A stretch of DNA of 64,000 nt, from assembly GCA_946223075.1 (NCBI GenBank), contig CAMILZ010000001.1, positions 177,086 to 241,085 of the forward strand, read 5' to 3'. Position 1 is the stretch's first letter; each line of letters starts with the position of its first letter. The notes beneath the pieces were generated by a model. It searched no databases and had not been told where the DNA came from. It saw only the letters and a list, made by a program, of their open reading frames with translations. Made by a program: the position numbers and the translations under genes. Positions 12,043 through 17,323 of this stretch are shown here, in pieces. This DNA comes from an uncultured Dermabacteraceae bacterium (GTDB lineage Bacteria > Actinomycetota > Actinomycetes > Actinomycetales > Dermabacteraceae).

Positions 12043-14241
12043 TTGACCAGCGACAGGGGAGGTATAGGCATGAACGGCGTCACCATCGCGATCGATGGCC
12101 CCGCAGGTTCGGGGAAGTCCACGGTGTCGAAAGAGGTGGCACGTGCCCTCGAGGGCGGCTATCTCGATACGGGTGCGATGTACCGCGCGGCCGCGTGGTC
12201 CTGCCTCAACGAGGGCGTTGACCTCGACGACAGGGAGGCCGTCACGGCGCACGTGGCGGAATTCGATCTCGTGATGTCGACCGACCCCGATGAGCCTTAC
12301 ATCTTCGTCGAGGGCACAGAGATTTCTTCGCAGATCCGCTCCGAGGAGATTTCGACGTGCGTGAGCCGCGTCGCGACCAACACCGATGTGCGCGCAATTC
12401 TTCAGGAGCGCCAGCGCGCAGTTTTCTTCCAGACGGCGAACGAGAAGGGTTTCTGCGTCGCTGAGGGCCGCGACATCACGACGGTTGTGGCGCCGGATGC
12501 TGATGTGCGCGTGCTTCTCACCGCGAGCGCCGAGGCGCGCCTGAGGCGCCGTGCCGGTCAGCTCGGGCTCGAGCAGTCAGAAGAAGTTCGTGAGCGCATG
12601 CGCGACCAGGTTCTTCGACGCGATGCCGACGATTCGACCGTTTCAGAATTCACGAAGGCCGCCGAAGGCGTCGACATGATCGACACGACTGACCTCGGCA
12701 TCGAAGAGGTCATCAACGCGGTTCTCGAACTGGTTCCCGGCATCGAACTCGTCGACGACGAGCCTGAAACCGAAGACGTACGCGATGATGCAAGCCCCGA
12801 TGCCCTCGATGACGAGGCGCGTACGGCCTCGCTGCGCGCGGGCCTTGAGGATTACGGCCTCGACGATGACGATCAGCGCCTCCTCACCGACGATTACGCG
12901 CCGATCGAGAGCGTCGAGGACGAGCGCATGCTTCCGGTGCTTGCCGTGATCGGCCGACCGAACGTCGGCAAGTCCACGCTCGTGAATCGCATCCTCGGCC
13001 ACCGCGAGGCGGTTGTGGAAGACACTCCCGGTGTGACGCGTGACCGCGTGTTCTATGAGGCCAACTGGGCGGGGCGCGACTTCATGCTCGTCGACACGGG
13101 CGGCTGGGAAGACAAGGTCGAGGGAGTCGCCTACCGCGTCGCCGAACAGGCCGAGCTCGCGATCGGCCTCGCCGATGCCGTGATGTTTGTTGTCGACGCC
13201 AACGTGGGCATCACTCACACTGACGAGCAACTCGTGAAGATGCTGCGCCGCTCCAAGAAACCCGTGCTGCTCGTCGCGAATAAGGTCGACGATCAGCGCG
13301 GCGAACTCGAGGCCGCGGCTCTGTGGAATCTCGGCCTTGGTGAGCCCCATCCCGTTTCCGCACTCCACGGACGCGGCTCCGGTGACGTGCTCGACCGTGT
13401 TCTTGAGATCCTCCCCGAGGAGGGGCAGACGCGCGCCAAGCCGAGCGGGCCACGGCGCGTGGCCCTCATCGGCCGACCGAACGTGGGTAAGAGTTCCTTG
13501 CTCAATAAGCTCGCGCGCGAGAACCGCGTTGTCGTGGACTCGACCGCGGGCACAACGCGTGACCCCGTCGACGAAGTCATCGAACTCGACGGGCGCGAGT
13601 GGACGTTTGTGGACACCGCCGGAATCCGCCGTCGTATCCGCCAAAGCGAAGGCGCCGACTTCTTCGCCTCGATCCGCACCCAGGCAGCCCTCGATCGCGC
13701 CGAAGTCGCCGTCGTTCTCCTCGAGGCCACGGAACCGATCTCGACTCAAGATCTCAAGATTATCGACATGGTCCTCGAGTCGGGTCGCGCCCTCGTGCTC
13801 GCCTTCAACAAGTGGGATCTTCTTAGCGAAGAGCGCCGCGCGCAACTCGAGTGGGAGATCGAAAAGGACCTCTCACACGTGCGATGGGCGCCGCGAGTGA
13901 ACATCTCTGCGCGCACGGGTCGCCACACCGACAAGCTCGTTCCGGCGCTCGATCTCGCCCTTGAGTCGTGGGATACACGTATTCCAACGGCGCGACTCAA
14001 CGCTTTCCTTGGAACGCTCGTGGCCGCCCACCCGCATCCGCTTCGTGGCGGAAAACAGCCGCGCATCCTCTTCGCGACCCAGGCCCGCACGCGGCCGCCG
14101 CGCTTCGTCATCTTCGCTTCGGGCTTTCTCGAGCACGGCTATCGCCGCTTTATCGAGCGACGCTTGCGCGAGGACTTCTCCTTTGACGGTTCGCCCGTGG
14201 AGATCAGCGTGCGCGTCCGCGAAAAGAGGAAAAACAGGTAA
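12043..14241 (+). CDS. cmk/der: Bifunctional cytidylate kinase / GTPase Der (EngA) fusion
   Basis: The N-terminal ~220 aa carry [20 protein letters not shown]...[10 protein letters not shown] (Cmk P-loop and lid). An acidic linker ([21 protein letters not shown]...) follows. Then come two tandem Der GTPase domains ([19 protein letters not shown]...DTGG and [18 protein letters not shown]...DTAG) and a KH-like C-terminus. Probable start is the ATG at 12070 ([10 protein letters not shown]) with a GGGGAGG RBS. Confidence 0.88.
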
Positions 14242-14252
14242 GGAGGGGCACC

Positions 14253-14738
14253 ATGCCCGCGCCCGACTTTGTTATCGCCCTGCGGGAGAAAATTGGTCAC
14301 GACCACCTGTGGCTCTCAGGCGTGACGGTGTACGTGCTCAACAAGGACCGCACACACTGCCTCTTCGTCCAGCGGGCCGACAACCGCGCGTGGACTCCGG
14401 TCACCGGGATCATCGATCCCGGTGAAGCTCCCGCCCGTGCGGGTGCTCGCGAGGTTCTTGAGGAAACGGGATGCACGTGCGAGATTGAGTTTCTCTCGAA
14501 TGTGGGATGCGTCGGCCCGGTGACCCACCCCAATGGTGACGTGGCGAGCTATCTCGATCTCGCGTTCGTCGCGACCCACGTGGAGGGTGACCCGCACCCA
14601 GCGGATGGCGAAAACCTGCAAGCCGCGTGGTTCCCCATCGGTGAGCCGCCAAAGCTCAATAGCCGCTTCACAAAAGGATTTCGCCACGCGCTCGCGCAAG
14701 TCGACAGTGGCGAGCACGTGGCGAAATTTGAGCGGTAG
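14253..14738 (+). CDS. NUDIX hydrolase
   Basis: NUDIX box GIIDPGEAPARAGAREVLEETGC (GX5EX7REUXEEXGU pattern), 161 aa. Confidence 0.8.
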   Translation: MPAPDFVIALREKIGHDHLWLSGVTVYVLNKDRTHCLFVQRADNRAWTPVTGIIDPGEAPARAGAREVLEETGCTCEIEFLSNVGCVGPVTHPNGDVASYLDLAFVATHVEGDPHPADGENLQAAWFPIGEPPKLNSRFTKGFRHALAQVDSGEHVAKFER

Positions 14739-14747
14739 GGATCTTTC

Positions 14748-17138
14748 TTAGCGCTCGCCCGTGGGGCGCTCGAACACGACCGCCATGGGCGTTTGCTGGG
14801 ACCCCTGGCCGAGCGGATTATCGGCAAACTGCGCTTCATAGTGCTCGCGGTCCCGCGAGGCGGAAAGGCCGAGCACGTTGCGCCCAATGTCGTTCGCATC
14901 CATGACCACGACGCCGTCGAAGGTCGTGGCGAAGCGCTCGGGCACGACCTTACGGATCACCTCCACGAGATGCTCCGCGACGCGATCTGGATCTTTCGGG
15001 GGGAGCTTTGCCGAAACATTGGACGGATACACGGAGTATTCGGTCGGGCCGTCGATCGCCCGCACATTAGCCCCCGCGAGTTCGTAGAAGACACCCCGCT
15101 TGCCTCGCAGTTTGCCGAGAGCGCCCAGAGCTGCGGCATACGTGATGCGCGCAAGGCCCGCCTCGTTAATCGCGAGCTGCATCGTCACCGGGTCTCCGAG
15201 GCCGATGCCCGCGGGGGTGCGCGTGACGAACTTCGAGAGTTGCTTCGCGGCTAAGGACGGCTTGATTTCCCACACGAACCATGAGCGGCCCTGCATGATC
15301 GCGATGATCTTTTCAGAAACCGTGAAGTTCCATGGGCGCCCCTCGGTCGCGTGGCGATCCTTATCGGTGCCACGAGCATCGAGCTCGGCGAAGAAGCGCT
15401 TAACGTACCCGGCAATCTCGTCATCCATGCGCGAGTCCTTCGAGAACTTCTCGGTCTGAATGGGGTAACGGCGGGCCAGAATGTCACCCTCGAGTTCAAG
15501 ATCGAGTTTCTTTCCCGCGTTCGCCGTGAGCGGCGTGTGGGGATCCGGCGGAAGCGATTGACCGTTGTCGCCCGCAAAGAGATCGGTATCCTCATGGGCT
15601 TCGTGCTCGCTCAGATCCGCCGAATCGAAGAACACACGCGCCCACAGCTCGGCGCATGCAAAACGCCACAGCTGGCCCGCGCTGAGTCCCCCGCGGCCAT
15701 TGATGTGGGCGTCGTACGCCTTGAGGATCTCCGCCTGATCGAACCAGCCTCGCGTGCCAAATGTTTGCGAGGAGAACAGCGAGAAGTAGGTGCCCTTGAT
15801 GCGCTTGAACCATGCGGCTTCCCGCTCGTGCGTAGTCTGGACTGAATCTTCGAAGGCCCGGTGCTCGAGTGCTGCCTCGATGAGGGAGGGAGAGCCTCCC
15901 TTGCCGAAAGCGGTATCGTCGAGCGAAGTGTAGAAACGAAGGAGCTCGCGATCGGTGAAAGGTGATCGAACCGCGATGGCTTTGCCGAACGAACGCGCAG
16001 CCTTGGCTCGTTGCTCCGCTTCGACGCAGCCCGCAGTGCCGAGCGAGGTGAGCGGGCCGTCGTATTCGGGAACAGGCTCGGCCGCGACCCGTTGTTCGGC
16101 TTTGTGCTCGCGCAAGGCGGAACCGAGAAGGGCATCGGTGGAGGCCTTTTTGCGAAGATGGGCGGAGCCGAGCACGCGCGAGACCACCGAGCGACGATCC
16201 TTCTCGGGGGCCCGAAGTGCACGCGCACCGTAGGAATCGAGTGCGAGGGCCCCGCCGTTCTTTGCACATGCGCGAATCGCGAGCCACGTGAAATAGGAGG
16301 TAAGCGACGTCGGTGGCTCCTCGAACGTGCGAAGCATGCGGGGAAGATCGCCCTTCAACCCCTGGGGAGTGGCCTTCACGTCGGCGTCGCTCGCCGTGTC
16401 GAGTTCGGGGCCACCCGTGGAAGCGGCGAGCGTAAGGGAGTCCAGGTTCGCGCGTGCGGCGCGCGAGGCACTTTCGAGGGAGCTCGACCCGATCGGGTCG
16501 ACCGAAGTGACGAGGAGAGCGCCCTTCTCCGAGGTGCGACGCGTCACTGCTTCACCGAGTCGCGTGCGGAACTCGTCGACGCACGTGTGGTCGGCGCGGC
16601 GCGGATTCGAGGAAACAGAGAAAACCTCGCTCTCGTCGTGCGCGAGCGATGAGCGCTCGACCTCGCCTCGCGAGACGCGCACCACCTCGCCGGGAAGGAC
16701 ACGGGAAACCCCCGCGAAGAAGGTTTCAGCTCCGCGATGATCCTCACCGAGGAGATAGCGGCGCACCACATCAAGATTGGGCTCGCGCCGAAGTCCGGCG
16801 CGCGAAATGACATTCGCGATCGACGAGGCGAAAGCCATGCCCTCATCGGTCTTGGCGTAGTAGAGAGGTCGAAGGCCAAGCTGGTCCCGTGCGAGCACGA
16901 GGGAAGAATCTGAGTCCAGGAAAGCTACCGCGAACTCGCCATCGAGTGAAGCGAGGGAGGAGAGGCCCTCCGCCTCGATGAGGCGCGAGCAAGCGTCGGA
17001 CCCCGCGGTCCCCGACAGTGCTTCCGGCGAGCCGGCCGGGATCACATACCCTTCGAGCGCGAGATCGCTGCTGCTCGCTCCTTCGGGCCAAGCCTTCATG
17101 TCTCCGTCAAAGGACACGTGACCGAAAAATGTAGACAT
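14748..17138 (-). CDS. Composite protein: asparagine-synthetase-like N-terminal and central modules plus a C-terminal CofE-like (F420 gamma-glutamyl ligase family) domain; function unknown
   Basis: ATG with a GGGAGG RBS. Residues 1-200 match the class-II GATase domain of AsnB (DGEFAVAFLDSDSSLVLARDQLGLRPLYY), but the protein begins MSTFFG, so the Cys2 nucleophile is replaced by Ser. The centre resembles the AsnB synthetase domain with a degenerate PP-loop (ALLVTSVDPIGSSS in place of SGGLDSS; TFEEPPTSLTSYFTWLAIRACAKNGGALALDSYGAR). The C-terminal ~250 aa align to CofE-type ligases (NFTVSEKIIAIMQGR ~ vvSKaEGR; LPPKDPDRVAEHLVEVIRKVV ~ LPeDPDasA; FDGVVVMDANDIGRNVLGLSAS ~ vgViiTDtnGRpwR.G..g.AiG). 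Confidence 0.6.
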   Translation of the reverse strand: MSTFFGHVSFDGDMKAWPEGASSSDLALEGYVIPAGSPEALSGTAGSDACSRLIEAEGLSSLASLDGEFAVAFLDSDSSLVLARDQLGLRPLYYAKTDEGMAFASSIANVISRAGLRREPNLDVVRRYLLGEDHRGAETFFAGVSRVLPGEVVRVSRGEVERSSLAHDESEVFSVSSNPRRADHTCVDEFRTRLGEAVTRRTSEKGALLVTSVDPIGSSSLESASRAARANLDSLTLAASTGGPELDTASDADVKATPQGLKGDLPRMLRTFEEPPTSLTSYFTWLAIRACAKNGGALALDSYGARALRAPEKDRRSVVSRVLGSAHLRKKASTDALLGSALREHKAEQRVAAEPVPEYDGPLTSLGTAGCVEAEQRAKAARSFGKAIAVRSPFTDRELLRFYTSLDDTAFGKGGSPSLIEAALEHRAFEDSVQTTHEREAAWFKRIKGTYFSLFSSQTFGTRGWFDQAEILKAYDAHINGRGGLSAGQLWRFACAELWARVFFDSADLSEHEAHEDTDLFAGDNGQSLPPDPHTPLTANAGKKLDLELEGDILARRYPIQTEKFSKDSRMDDEIAGYVKRFFAELDARGTDKDRHATEGRPWNFTVSEKIIAIMQGRSWFVWEIKPSLAAKQLSKFVTRTPAGIGLGDPVTMQLAINEAGLARITYAAALGALGKLRGKRGVFYELAGANVRAIDGPTEYSVYPSNVSAKLPPKDPDRVAEHLVEVIRKVVPERFATTFDGVVVMDANDIGRNVLGLSASRDREHYEAQFADNPLGQGSQQTPMAVVFERPTGER

Positions 17139-17194
17139 CGCATCAACCTCCCAAGGCTCATTTACCCCCGACTATAGGGTAGTGACATAAGGGG

Positions 17195-17241
17195 CAATAT
17201 AAAGAAATGGGCGAGGCACCTCTTCGATGCCTCGCCCATTT
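17195..17241 (-). terminator. Intrinsic terminator-like hairpin just downstream of tRNA-Pro
   Basis: Perfect 14-bp inverted repeat AAATGGGCGAGGCA / TGCCTCGCCCATTT with a 9-nt loop. On the minus strand it is followed by CTTTATATTG (T-rich). Confidence 0.6.
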
Positions 17242-17248
17242 ATCCGCG

Positions 17249-17323
17249 TCGGGCTGACAGGATTTGAACCTGCGACCCCACGACCCCCAGTCGTGTGCGC
17301 TACCAAACTGCGCCACAGCCCGC
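17249..17323 (-). tRNA. tRNA-Pro (anticodon GGG)
   Basis: Minus-strand sequence CGGGCTGTGGCGCAGTTTGGTAGCGCACACGACTGGGGGTCGTGGGGTCGCAGGTTCAAATCCTGTCAGCCCGA. It has a 7-bp acceptor stem (CGGGCTG/CAGCCCG), a D-arm GCGC..GCGC, the anticodon loop CTGGGGG (anticodon GGG), a T-loop GGTTCAAAT, and discriminator A. CCA is not encoded. Confidence 0.85.

What the first reader, a model, noticed from the sequence alone, without database searches (positions are those of the whole stretch)
14748..17138. 796-aa composite enzyme: asparagine-synthetase-like module without its Cys nucleophile fused to a CofE-like gamma-glutamyl-ligase domain
The N-terminal ~480 aa align to AsnB (class-II glutamine amidotransferase plus PP-loop synthetase), but the key residues are changed. 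The protein starts MSTFFG, so the obligatory Cys2 nucleophile is Ser. The PP-loop SGGxDS is degenerate (TSVDPIGSSS). The C-terminal ~250 aa share the ordered motif pattern of CofE / F420-0:gamma-glutamyl ligase (SEKIIAIMQGR; LPPKDPDRVAEHL; DGVVVMDANDIGRNVLG). I do not recognise this architecture from any characterised protein. The organism's gene content (PPP operon, no F420 genes in view) gives no reason to expect an F420 pathway. The gene has its own strong RBS, sits alone between a NUDIX gene and tRNA-Pro, and could encode a new amide- or isopeptide-bond-forming activity acting on a cofactor, peptide or cell-wall precursor. This is the best candidate in the window for something undescribed.
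Basis: partly seen in the sequence, partly recalled or inferred. Interest (0 to 1): 0.72.

Follow-up and report, generated by a model that had tools for sequence, protein, structure and literature searches.

The report
Dead asparagine synthetase fused to CofE-like ligase
This Dermabacter gene encodes a protein whose front part is an asparagine-synthetase relic that has lost its catalytic residues and whose well-conserved tail is a distant, F420-independent relative of the cofactor-glutamylating enzyme CofE; it belongs to a widespread family that nobody has characterised.

Summary

The architecture is not unique. An AsnB + CofE-like fusion occurs in at least 552 loci of species-representative genomes, all of the best 80 from Actinomycetota or Patescibacteria. 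The usual form (53 of 71 complete fusions) is ~890 aa with MCGIAG and SGGLDS, and the three tested pass NCBI's asparagine-synthase model. The window gene is the positional orthologue of such genes in Helcobacillus and a Dermabacter MAG. About one fusion in six is equally degenerate.

The CofE-like domain is the conserved core (dN/dS ~0.05, against ~0.2 for the relic), and all family signature residues are present. The CofE elements that hold F420 have no counterpart.

Best reading: an NTP-dependent carboxylate-amine ligase acting on an unknown non-F420 substrate, carried on a non-catalytic AsnB scaffold. No paper found describes the family, and databases call it "hypothetical protein" or "asparagine synthase". 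It is a moderately interesting lead, not a one-off invention.

The parts
14748..17138 (-). Complete CDS, 796 aa plus stop codon; monocistronic
   Evidence: ORF list. Identical protein P0001 occurs in NCBI/ENA assemblies. Orthologues of 68-94% identity in other Dermabacter assemblies lie at the same locus.
17147..17152 (-). Shine-Dalgarno GGGAGG, 8 nt upstream of the ATG
   Evidence: Read directly from the sequence.
16794..17138 (-). Residues 1-115: remnant of the class-II (Ntn) glutamine-amidotransferase domain. It has no Cys nucleophile and about 63 residues are deleted relative to canonical relatives.
   Evidence: Pfam GATase_7 over residues 48-108, E 6e-12, matching only profile positions 56-119 of 123. 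Alignment A3 with canonical relatives. Low-to-moderate pLDDT over residues 1-50.
15624..16793 (-). Residues 116-505: remnant of the AsnB synthetase (PP-loop ATP pyrophosphatase) domain. The fold is kept; the SGGxDS PP-loop and other conserved motifs are lost.
   Evidence: Pfam Asn_synthase E 0.0026, below cut-off. TIGR01536 68.8 bits against a 267.1 cut-off. Alignment A3. Foldseek of the full model: 7ylz E 1e-15, 1ct9 E 3e-11. dN/dS 0.17-0.26, so purifying selection persists.
15522..15623 (-). Residues 506-539: acidic/proline-rich linker, predicted disordered around residues 522-529
   Evidence: pLDDT below 50 at residues 522-529. Region of variable length in alignments A1 and A3.
14751..15521 (-). 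Residues 540-796: CofE-fold domain, the conserved core. Signature residues: S608-E-K610, Q616-G-R618, D696-G-P, N707, D747-A-N-D750, D773-N-P-x-G-Q778, T783-P784.
17248..17322 (-). tRNA-Pro (GGG), the upstream neighbour; a separate transcription unit
   Evidence: ARAGORN.
17205..17241 (-). Intrinsic-terminator-like hairpin (16 pairs, followed by a T-rich tail) after tRNA-Pro, which isolates the CDS from upstream transcription
   Evidence: Terminator scan.
14253..14738 (+). Convergent NUDIX hydrolase gene. Its end lies 9 nt from the stop codon of the CDS. It is a neighbour only in the Dermabacter clade.
   Evidence: ORF list. Pfam annotation of the identical contig. Absent next to relatives elsewhere.

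Best explanation
The gene encodes a two-module protein in which only the C-terminal module is catalytic.

C-terminal module (residues 540-796). It is a divergent member of the CofE (F420-0:gamma-glutamyl ligase) fold. By homology it most likely binds a nucleoside triphosphate and divalent metal, activates a carboxylate as an acyl-phosphate, and joins it to an amine, probably an amino acid such as glutamate. The substrate is not F420. This step is inferred from fold and motif conservation and has not been shown.

N-terminal module (about 505 residues). It descends from a complete glutamine-dependent asparagine synthetase. The ancestral and still common form of the family carries Cys2 and SGGLDS. 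In the Dermabacter hominis / D. vaginalis / window clade it has lost the glutaminase nucleophile, about 60 N-terminal residues and the PP-loop, so it can neither hydrolyse glutamine nor adenylate a carboxylate. It is kept under purifying selection as a folded, non-catalytic module; whether its role is as scaffold, in oligomerisation or in substrate binding is an inference.

In canonical relatives the two modules probably perform two successive amide-forming steps on one substrate: ligation followed by amidation. The Dermabacter clade retains only the ligation step.
For: 1. Fold: CofE is the only significant PDB match of the C-terminal model. The AsnB family matches the N-terminal part of the full-length model.

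2. Motifs colinear with Af-CofE:
- SEKxxAxxQGR aligns with STVISKAEGR.
- IDGP...PSNV-SAKLPPKDPD aligns with GIDASNV...SLLLPPLDPD.
- VVMDANDIGR aligns with IITDTNGR.
- DNPLGQG...TP.AVV aligns with LLMGEGG..IPAVVV.
- CofE D109 and D150 are kept as D696 and D747.

3. These polar residues are 79-100% conserved in 238 family domains, most of them at 93% or more, and all are present in the window protein.

4. Selection: dN/dS is 0.04-0.06 for the CofE-like part and 0.18-0.24 for the AsnB-like part, at dS of about 1.1-1.6.

5. Loss of AsnB catalytic elements is shown by alignment to canonical relatives, two of which (L007, L061) lie at the same chromosomal position.

6. The CofE-like domain also occurs alone (about 285 aa) and with other partners such as redoxin, GNAT and M20 peptidase, which shows it is an autonomous unit.

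7. AsnB degeneration recurs: 12 of 71 complete fusions in species genomes are Cys-/PP-, and most long 50%-identity cluster representatives lack SGGxDS. The C-terminal domain stays conserved throughout.

8. Not F420:
- The CofE segment around residues 166-194 has no counterpart. I read this segment as the long beta-hairpin that PMC10861534 describes as contacting F420.
- F92 aligns with Ile in the hhalign alignment, and the protein ends before the equivalent of R234.
- Hosts include Saccharibacteria and other CPR bacteria, Schaalia and Dermabacter.
Against: - No biochemical data exist for any member, and the substrate is unknown.
- Both Glu residues conserved in CofE (E47 of AEGR, and E208 of GEGG, a Mn ligand as I recall from Nocek et al. 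2007, which was not available to check) are invariant Gln in this family. CofE T151 is Ala here. The metal site and the chemistry may therefore differ from CofE.
- The sequence link to CofE is weak: the hhalign probability is only 27% against a single-sequence template, and a profile search against PDB sequences found nothing.
- The Foldseek TM-score is only about 0.5.
- No neighbour gene is conserved across the whole family that would hint at a pathway.
- A non-catalytic role for the AsnB relic is inferred only from the missing motifs.
Confidence: 0.55

Rival explanations
1. The CofE-fold domain is not a ligase. It could be a nucleotide- or metabolite-binding regulatory domain, or an enzyme of another class such as a hydrolase or transferase. 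It would originally have controlled or complemented the attached asparagine synthetase and acquired an independent role when the AsnB part decayed.
For: Both CofE glutamates are replaced by invariant glutamines, and T151 by Ala. About 45 CofE residues (162-206) align with only about 21 residues here, and the CofE C-terminal tail is missing. The three canonical fusions scanned pass the asparagine-synthase equivalog model, so the AsnB half may simply make asparagine.
Against: The rest of the CofE catalytic constellation (Lys, GR, both Asp, Asn, the DNP/GQG loop) is conserved at 79-100%, mostly 93% or more. That level is typical of an active site rather than a binding module. The domain persists at dN/dS of about 0.05 where the AsnB half is dead, and it exists as a stand-alone protein.
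Confidence: 0.2
2. The AsnB-like module is still catalytic in a non-canonical way, for example ammonia-dependent or using another nucleophile. The protein would then still perform two reactions.
For: The module is under purifying selection with dN/dS of about 0.2. It is predicted to fold like AsnB. AsnB-superfamily enzymes that lack the glutaminase Cys are known, such as beta-lactam synthetase, carbapenam synthetase and lasso cyclases; some of these appear among the structural and NCBIfam matches.
Against: Those enzymes keep the PP-loop, whereas here it is deleted together with DGQGADE and the LLRYEDR/EGRVPFLD motifs. TIGR01536 scores 68.8 bits against a 267.1 cut-off, and Pfam Asn_synthase is below threshold.
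Confidence: 0.1
3. It is a genuine, if divergent, F420-0:gamma-glutamyl ligase, or it acts on a related deazaflavin or flavin cofactor.
For: CofE fold and a weak PF01996 match. Some stand-alone relatives are auto-annotated as 'coenzyme F420-0:L-glutamate ligase'.
Against: The F420-contacting elements of CofE are absent. The family is abundant in CPR bacteria, Schaalia and Dermabacter. CPR bacteria have genomes too small for cofactor synthesis, and F420 has not been reported from any of these three groups, as far as I know. A phmmer scan of 1.8 billion proteins returned only 616 hits, and the family profile does not hit the PDB CofE sequences, which suggests that canonical CofE/FbiB is not reached by sequence search.
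Confidence: 0.03
4. The gene is a decaying relic (pseudogene in the making) or an assembly or frameshift artefact.
For: Loss of catalytic motifs in two thirds of the protein.
Against: The reading frame is intact at 796-805 aa in independent assemblies and species separated by dS above 1, and dN/dS is well below 1 in every region. The gene has a good RBS. The AF2 model is confident.
Confidence: 0.03

Closest known systems
CofE / N-terminal domain of FbiB (F420-0:gamma-glutamyl ligase, Pfam PF01996; PDB 2PHN, 2G9I, 7ULD)
   Different: - About 17-22% identity, and below the Pfam gathering score.
- E47 and E208 are Gln and T151 is Ala.
- There is an extra helical insert of about 25 residues between the QGR and IDGP motifs.
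- The F420-contacting hairpin, F92 and the R234 tail are missing.
- It is fused to AsnB rather than free-standing or fused to a nitroreductase.
- Its hosts are mostly not known as F420 producers.
Asparagine synthetase B (class-II glutamine amidotransferase plus PP-loop synthetase; TIGR01536; PDB 1CT9, 6GQ3)
   Same: Residues 1-505 have the AsnB two-domain fold. They are the orthologous counterpart of a complete AsnB module in relatives at the same locus.
   Different: No Cys nucleophile, about 63 residues of the glutaminase domain deleted, no SGGxDS PP-loop, far below the family cut-offs, and an added C-terminal CofE-like domain.
AsnB-superfamily enzymes without glutaminase activity (beta-lactam synthetase 1JGT, carbapenam synthetase 1Q15, lasso-peptide cyclases NF033535, TsnB9 7YLZ)
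   Same: They are the best structural matches of the N-terminal part, and they set a precedent for AsnB folds re-used without the Cys nucleophile.
   Different: Those enzymes retain the PP-loop and adenylate their substrates. This protein has lost it, so the analogy does not rescue catalysis.
Two-step ligate-then-amidate systems: NAGGN synthesis (Ngg ATP-grasp/GNAT plus AsnO amidotransferase, TIGR03104) and peptidoglycan iso-glutamine formation (MurD, then MurT/GatD). Both are recalled from the literature and were not tested here.
   Same: The logic is the same: a carboxylate-amine ligase is paired with a glutamine-dependent amidotransferase. The canonical fusions score 282-343 bits on the NAGGN amidotransferase model (cut-off 570, not met), and rare relatives of the domain are fused to GNAT or to an M20 peptidase.
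   Different: The ligase folds differ (ATP-grasp or Mur ligase against CofE). Nothing shows that the substrates are related. In the window protein the amidotransferase half is dead.

Membership tests
CofE / F420-0:gamma-glutamyl ligase (PF01996) | CofE fold | tested here: met
CofE / F420-0:gamma-glutamyl ligase (PF01996) | Score above the Pfam gathering threshold (25 bits) | tested here: not met
   14.8 bits for the full protein and 19.3 bits for the domain alone. At family level, 80 of 82 relatives match at E <= 0.01, the best at 6.7e-11.
CofE / F420-0:gamma-glutamyl ligase (PF01996) | Metal and nucleotide-site residues (Af-CofE D109, D150, T151 and E208 as I recall from Nocek 2007, plus the K/EGR motif) | tested here: inconclusive
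   D109 corresponds to D696 and D150 to D747, both kept. T151 corresponds to A748, E208 to Q778 and E47 to Q616. G-R is kept. The ligand assignment is from memory because the paper was not available.
CofE / F420-0:gamma-glutamyl ligase (PF01996) | F420-binding elements (domain-swapped beta-hairpin, F92, R234; PMC10861534) | tested here: not met
   CofE residues 162-206 align with only about 21 residues. F92 aligns with Ile in the hhalign alignment, and the protein ends before the equivalent of R234. This is a sequence-level test only.
CofE / F420-0:gamma-glutamyl ligase (PF01996) | Co-occurrence with F420 biosynthesis genes (cofGH/fbiC, cofD/fbiA, cofC/fbiD) | not testable with these tools
   Only 64 kb of the genome is available. 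I did not scan the window for F420 genes and none turned up among the genes I looked at. The family is abundant in CPR bacteria and Actinomycetaceae.
CofE / F420-0:gamma-glutamyl ligase (PF01996) | GTP-dependent gamma-glutamylation activity | not testable with these tools
   Requires biochemistry.
Asparagine synthetase B (glutamine-hydrolysing) | N-terminal Cys nucleophile directly after the initiator Met | tested here: not met
   The protein starts MSTFFG. An in-frame stop lies 12 codons upstream. Relatives at the same locus start MCGIAG.
Asparagine synthetase B (glutamine-hydrolysing) | PP-loop SGGxDS for ATP binding and adenylation | tested here: not met
   No SGGxDS anywhere in the protein (for the 75%-identical P0004; direct reading of the sequence). 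Alignment A3 shows an 8-residue deletion at this site.
Asparagine synthetase B (glutamine-hydrolysing) | Score above the TIGR01536 and PF00733 cut-offs | tested here: not met
   TIGR01536 68.8 bits against 267.1. PF00733 17.9 bits against 21.
Asparagine synthetase B (glutamine-hydrolysing) | AsnB two-domain fold | tested here: met
   Foldseek of the full-length model: 7ylz E 1e-15, 1jgt/1m1z about 1e-14, 9b6c 1.5e-12, 1ct9 3e-11.
Uncharacterised AsnB + CofE-like fusion family (Actinomycetota / Patescibacteria) | Colinear full-length homology with the canonical ~890-aa members, and a shared chromosomal position within Dermabacteraceae | tested here: met
   35-44% full-length identity and 57-77% in the C-terminal domain. 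The same FHA / MerR / tRNA-Pro ... cmk-der neighbourhood is found in L007 and L061.
Uncharacterised AsnB + CofE-like fusion family (Actinomycetota / Patescibacteria) | C-terminal signature SEK..QGR / IDGP / PxN / DANDxG / DNPxGQ / TP | tested here: met
   All positions are present in the window protein. They are 79-100% conserved in 238 domains, most at 93% or more.

The most novel reading that the evidence does not exclude
The CofE-fold domain defines a second, F420-independent branch of the CofE superfamily. It would catalyse a so far undescribed amino-acid ligation on a cell-envelope precursor, a small peptide or metabolite, or a protein.

The protein-substrate version would explain one observation. 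In five CPR loci the gene, whether its N-terminal partner is AsnB or a peroxiredoxin, is followed by a small hydrophobic protein and a ClpB/ClpC-class unfoldase. In Schaalia it lies between clpC and clpB. The enzyme would then be a tagging or repair enzyme linked to protein quality control, with the AsnB half amidating the added residue in canonical members.
Probability: 0.1. Interest if true: 0.85.

Novelty: new variant of a known kind. Interest (0 to 1): 0.48.

Why it matters
CofE is the only characterised activity for its fold, and it is regarded as an F420-pathway enzyme. Here a separate, strongly conserved branch of that fold is found in hundreds of species, including groups such as CPR bacteria that are very unlikely to make F420: human-associated Dermabacter and Schaalia, soil Intrasporangiaceae, and Saccharibacteria and other CPR bacteria with minimal genomes.

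The branch is almost always welded to an asparagine synthetase, and databases therefore name the whole protein "asparagine synthase". The repeated decay of the synthetase half while the CofE-like half stays under tight constraint says where the selected function lies. It also flags a systematic mis-annotation.

The Dermabacter version is a natural separation-of-function mutant. It offers the CofE-like activity without interference from the AsnB activity, which makes it a convenient protein for finding the substrate.

Tried and rejected
- Sequence searches of the C-terminal domain and of its 82-sequence profile against PDB sequences found no CofE. The link needed Pfam at family level, hhalign and structure comparison.
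The alignment printout gave the deposited Af-CofE sequence, which was used afterwards.
- The first full-length protein search returned almost only ordinary AsnB proteins and hid the fusion family, because only the 8000 candidates sharing most words were scored. A third search with alignment A3 had the same problem and added nothing.
- Neighbour clustering with my own ORF caller was contaminated by spurious antisense ORFs in high-GC genomes. The clusters shared by about 22 loci are Intrasporangiaceae synteny and off-frame ORFs, not functional partners. No neighbour conserved across the whole family was found.
- Other fusion partners of the domain (M20 peptidase, GNAT, adenylate kinase, redoxin, PlsY, CDP-alcohol phosphatidyltransferase, HD) are single cases and too heterogeneous to fix a substrate.
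- Literature searches for CofE with asparagine synthetase, PF01996, 'CofE-like', and F420 ligase with Saccharibacteria found nothing on this family. Nocek 2007 and Bashiri 2016 are not held.
- I considered and dropped, for lack of any test, links to peptidoglycan type (A4-gamma bridges of Dermabacteraceae), to pupylation and to poly-glutamine wall polymers.
- The pseudogene and frameshift-artefact readings were rejected on dN/dS and on conservation across assemblies.
Full report
**1. What is there**

The ORF 14748..17138 on the minus strand encodes 796 aa from an ATG. GGGAGG lies 8 nt upstream. An in-frame TAG 12 codons upstream rules out a longer, Cys-containing N-terminus.

Upstream on the same strand lies tRNA-Pro(GGG) at 17248-17322. 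It is followed by a 16-bp-stem terminator-like hairpin at 17241-17205. Downstream, a NUDIX gene converges on the stop codon.

An identical protein (P0001) is found in public assemblies. Orthologues of 94%, 77% (Dermabacter vaginalis) and 68% (D. hominis) identity lie in the same neighbourhood: PAC2, ParA-like, MerR, FHA, tRNA-Pro, this gene, NUDIX, cmk-der, prephenate dehydrogenase. The window comes from a Dermabacter-like species. Public names for these proteins are "hypothetical protein" or "asparagine synthase (glutamine-hydrolyzing)".

**2. The N-terminal two thirds: an asparagine synthetase that has lost its chemistry**

Sequence evidence:
- Pfam finds only the C-terminal half of the glutamine-amidotransferase domain (GATase_7, residues 48-108, E 6e-12).
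- The Asn_synthase hit is sub-threshold.
- NCBIfam TIGR01536 scores 68.8 bits against a cut-off of 267.1.

A full-length AlphaFold model (pLDDT 80.9, pTM 0.70) matches AsnB-superfamily structures over this part. The hits are TsnB9 7ylz (E 1e-15), beta-lactam synthetase (about 1e-14), human ASNS, carbapenam synthetase and E. coli AsnB 1ct9 (3e-11).

I aligned the protein with canonical relatives from a Dermabacter MAG, Helcobacillus, Schaalia, a Saccharibacterium and Oryzobacter. The window protein:
- lacks about 63 residues right after position 7, a stretch that contains the HRGPD, RLxIxD, QPM and YNGE motifs;
- has Ser in place of Cys2;
- has an 8-residue deletion where VGTSLSGGLDS should be;
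- has diverged at DGQGADE and LLRYEDR/EGRVPFLD.

The glutaminase nucleophile and the ATP-binding PP-loop are both gone, so the usual AsnB chemistry is not possible. AsnB-fold enzymes that work without the Cys (beta-lactam synthetase, CarA, lasso cyclases) keep the PP-loop. This protein does not.

**3. The C-terminal third has a CofE fold**

For this single sequence the PF01996 match is below threshold (14.8-19.3 bits, cut-off 25). However, 80 of 82 homologues of the domain match PF01996 at E <= 0.01, the best at 6.7e-11.

The AlphaFold model of residues 540-796 is confident (pLDDT 90.3, pTM 0.88). Its only significant PDB matches are the A. fulgidus CofE entries:
- Foldseek E 3.5e-9, TM about 0.5.

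Profile-sequence alignment to Af-CofE is colinear over CofE residues 12-221 (hhalign E 7e-4, though the probability is only 27%). A plain pairwise alignment reproduces the same anchors. The Af-CofE sequence used was recovered from the PDB.

The anchors are:
- FTVSEKIIAIMQGR with VVCSTVISKAEGR;
- AIDGP...PSNVSAKLPPKDPDRVAEHL with GIDASNV..SLLLPPLDPDGSAEKL;
- VVVMDANDIGR with VIITDTNGR;
- ADNPLGQGSQQTPMAVV with ANLLMGEGGDGIPAVVV.

**4. Where it differs from CofE**

CofE D109 and D150 correspond to D696 and D747. I recall D109, D150, T151 and E208 as the Mn ligands from Nocek et al. 2007. That paper was not available, but the numbering fits the deposited sequence.

- T151 is Ala here, and both conserved CofE glutamates (E47, E208) are glutamines.
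- These glutamines are about 97% conserved across 238 domains of this family.
- The stretch CofE 162-206 aligns with only about 21 residues. I read this stretch as containing the long domain-swapped hairpin that PMC10861534 describes as making critical contacts with F420.
- F92, which stacks on the deazaflavin, aligns with Ile in the hhalign alignment.
- The protein ends before the position of R234, the other stacking residue.

The nucleotide and metal core thus looks preserved, while the F420 pocket does not.

**5. The architecture is common, and this copy is the derived form**

A search with the C-terminal domain alone found 704 proteins in the clustered database. They are either stand-alone proteins of about 285 aa or fusions to AsnB. 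An exhaustive phmmer scan of 1.8 billion representatives gave 616 hits at E <= 1e-3 and 83 at E <= 1e-30, many of them 700-950 aa long with the domain at the C-terminus.

A scan of one genome per species found at least 552 loci. The best 80 are all from one of two groups:
- Actinomycetota: Intrasporangiaceae/Dermatophilaceae, Dermabacteraceae, Micrococcaceae, Microlunatus, Actinopolymorpha, Cryptosporangium, Schaalia/Actinomycetaceae and Coriobacteriales.
- Patescibacteria: Saccharibacteria, Nomurabacteria and Woesebacteria.

Among the best 80, the 71 complete fusions divide as follows:

| Class | Count |
|---|---|
| Both MCG(I/V)xG and SGGxDS, length ~880-940 aa from the Cys | 53 |
| Neither motif | 12 |
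| One of the two motifs | 6 |

A further 4 loci carry stand-alone domains.

Three canonical members pass the TIGR01536 asparagine-synthase equivalog model at 406-428 bits. The single distant full-length hit of the first search, P0008, had been mis-called. Its true start is MCGIAG, 37 codons upstream.

Within Dermabacteraceae, the canonical genes of Helcobacillus (L061) and a Dermabacter MAG (L007) occupy the same FHA/MerR/tRNA-Pro ... cmk-der region as the window gene. In L007 the gene is inverted relative to its flanks. The window gene is therefore a degenerate positional orthologue, not a new invention.

Degeneration of the AsnB half has happened repeatedly, for example in Microlunatus (MIALAG), a Mycobacteriales MAG (MSGLAG) and Cryptosporangium. 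Most long 50%-identity cluster representatives lack SGGxDS. One MAG carries both a canonical and a degenerate paralogue (L080 and L018).

**6. Selection**

I calculated Nei-Gojobori dN/dS between the window gene and the D. vaginalis and D. hominis orthologues, at dS of about 1.1-1.6.

| Region | dN/dS | Amino-acid identity |
|---|---|---|
| CofE-like domain | 0.04-0.06 | 88-92% |
| AsnB-like part | 0.18-0.24 | 57-74% |

Both parts are under purifying selection, and the C-terminal domain is four to five times more constrained. This rules out a pseudogene or an artefact. It also shows that the relic still matters, presumably as structure.

**7. Context**

I found no neighbour conserved across the whole family. 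Two local patterns may be leads.

- In five CPR loci the gene is followed by a ~125-140-aa hydrophobic protein and a ~800-aa ClpB/ClpC-class double AAA+ ATPase that lacks Clp_N. In one of these loci the domain's N-terminal partner is a peroxiredoxin instead of AsnB. In Schaalia the gene lies between clpC and clpB.
- The stand-alone form lies directly downstream of lexA in two genomes.

Rare single fusions to M20 peptidase, GNAT, adenylate kinase, PlsY, CDP-alcohol phosphatidyltransferase and HD domains exist.

**8. Interpretation**

Shown:
- the folds;
- the loss of the AsnB catalytic motifs;
- retention of the family's conserved polar residues;
- the selection pattern;
- the phyletic spread;
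- orthology to canonical fusions.

Inferred:
- The C-terminal domain is an active NTP-dependent carboxylate-amine ligase using an acyl-phosphate mechanism as in CofE, acting on a non-F420 substrate.
- The AsnB relic is a non-catalytic scaffold.
- Canonical members perform ligation plus amidation on one substrate. This logic resembles NAGGN synthesis or MurD followed by MurT/GatD, both recalled from the literature and not tested here.

The two invariant Glu-to-Gln changes are unexplained, so a different chemistry remains possible.

**9. Novelty and score**

No paper in the searchable library mentions this family. Databases label it by its AsnB half or as hypothetical.

It is a new variant of known kinds: a CofE-superfamily branch fused to AsnB, with the window gene representing the pseudo-enzyme sub-variant. 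An enzymologist would see a good, testable lead and a case of systematic mis-annotation rather than a startling object. I set interest at about 0.48.

Noticed in passing
L026 6117-12082; L048 439-5902; L057 6111-12276; L064 6102-12048; L089 6001-9990; also L006 2383-12372: In CPR genomes (Nomurabacteria, Saccharibacteria, Woesebacteria, Saccharimonadales) the CofE-like gene is followed by a ~125-140-aa hydrophobic protein with no Pfam match and a ~800-aa ClpB/ClpC-class double AAA+ ATPase that lacks Clp_N. This holds whether the domain is fused to AsnB or, in L089, to a peroxiredoxin. In Schaalia the gene lies between clpC and clpB. This may be a functional link to protein quality control.
   Followed up: partly
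L001 7228-8855; L091 5151-6858: The stand-alone ~285-aa form of the domain lies immediately downstream of lexA, in the same direction, next to nrdR/nrdJ and a DinG-type helicase. This is seen in Actinopolymorpha alba and in one other genome.
   Followed up: no
L018 6060-8762 and L080 6018-8870 (same MAG, MFD01721.bin.1.259); L028 4227-8753: One actinobacterial MAG carries both a canonical (Cys+/PP+) and a degenerate (Cys-/PP-) paralogue of the fusion. A Coriobacteriales MAG has an ordinary 625-aa AsnB immediately upstream of the fusion gene.
   Followed up: no
window 12043-14241 (+): A cytidylate kinase (cmk) and the GTPase Der/EngA are encoded as one 732-aa fusion ORF. The fusion is conserved in the Dermabacter relatives.
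   Followed up: no
L007 6054-8765 compared with window 14748-17138: In a Dermabacter MAG the canonical gene occupies the same interval between cmk-der and tRNA-Pro, but in the opposite orientation relative to the flanks, and without the adjacent NUDIX gene. This suggests a local inversion or replacement. The C-terminal domain of Schaalia (77% identity) is closer to the window protein than that of the Dermabacter MAG (70%) or Helcobacillus (57%), which hints at horizontal transfer.
   Followed up: partly
L004 7893-8003 (P0008): The database gene call for the metagenomic homologue P0008 starts 37 codons too late. The true start, MCGIAGY..., lies upstream, so the called protein wrongly appears to lack the Cys nucleophile.
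   Followed up: yes
window residues 616 and 778 of the protein (codons at 15291-15293 and 14805-14807, minus strand): The two glutamates conserved in CofE (E47 in AEGR, E208 in GEGG) are glutamines in about 97% of 238 domains of this family. The effect on metal binding or on the chemistry is unexplained.
   Followed up: partly
cluster of P0003: One member of the Dermabacter vaginalis cluster is deposited under Mycobacteroides abscessus subsp. abscessus (SHV72116.1). This is probably a contaminated or mislabelled assembly.
   Followed up: no
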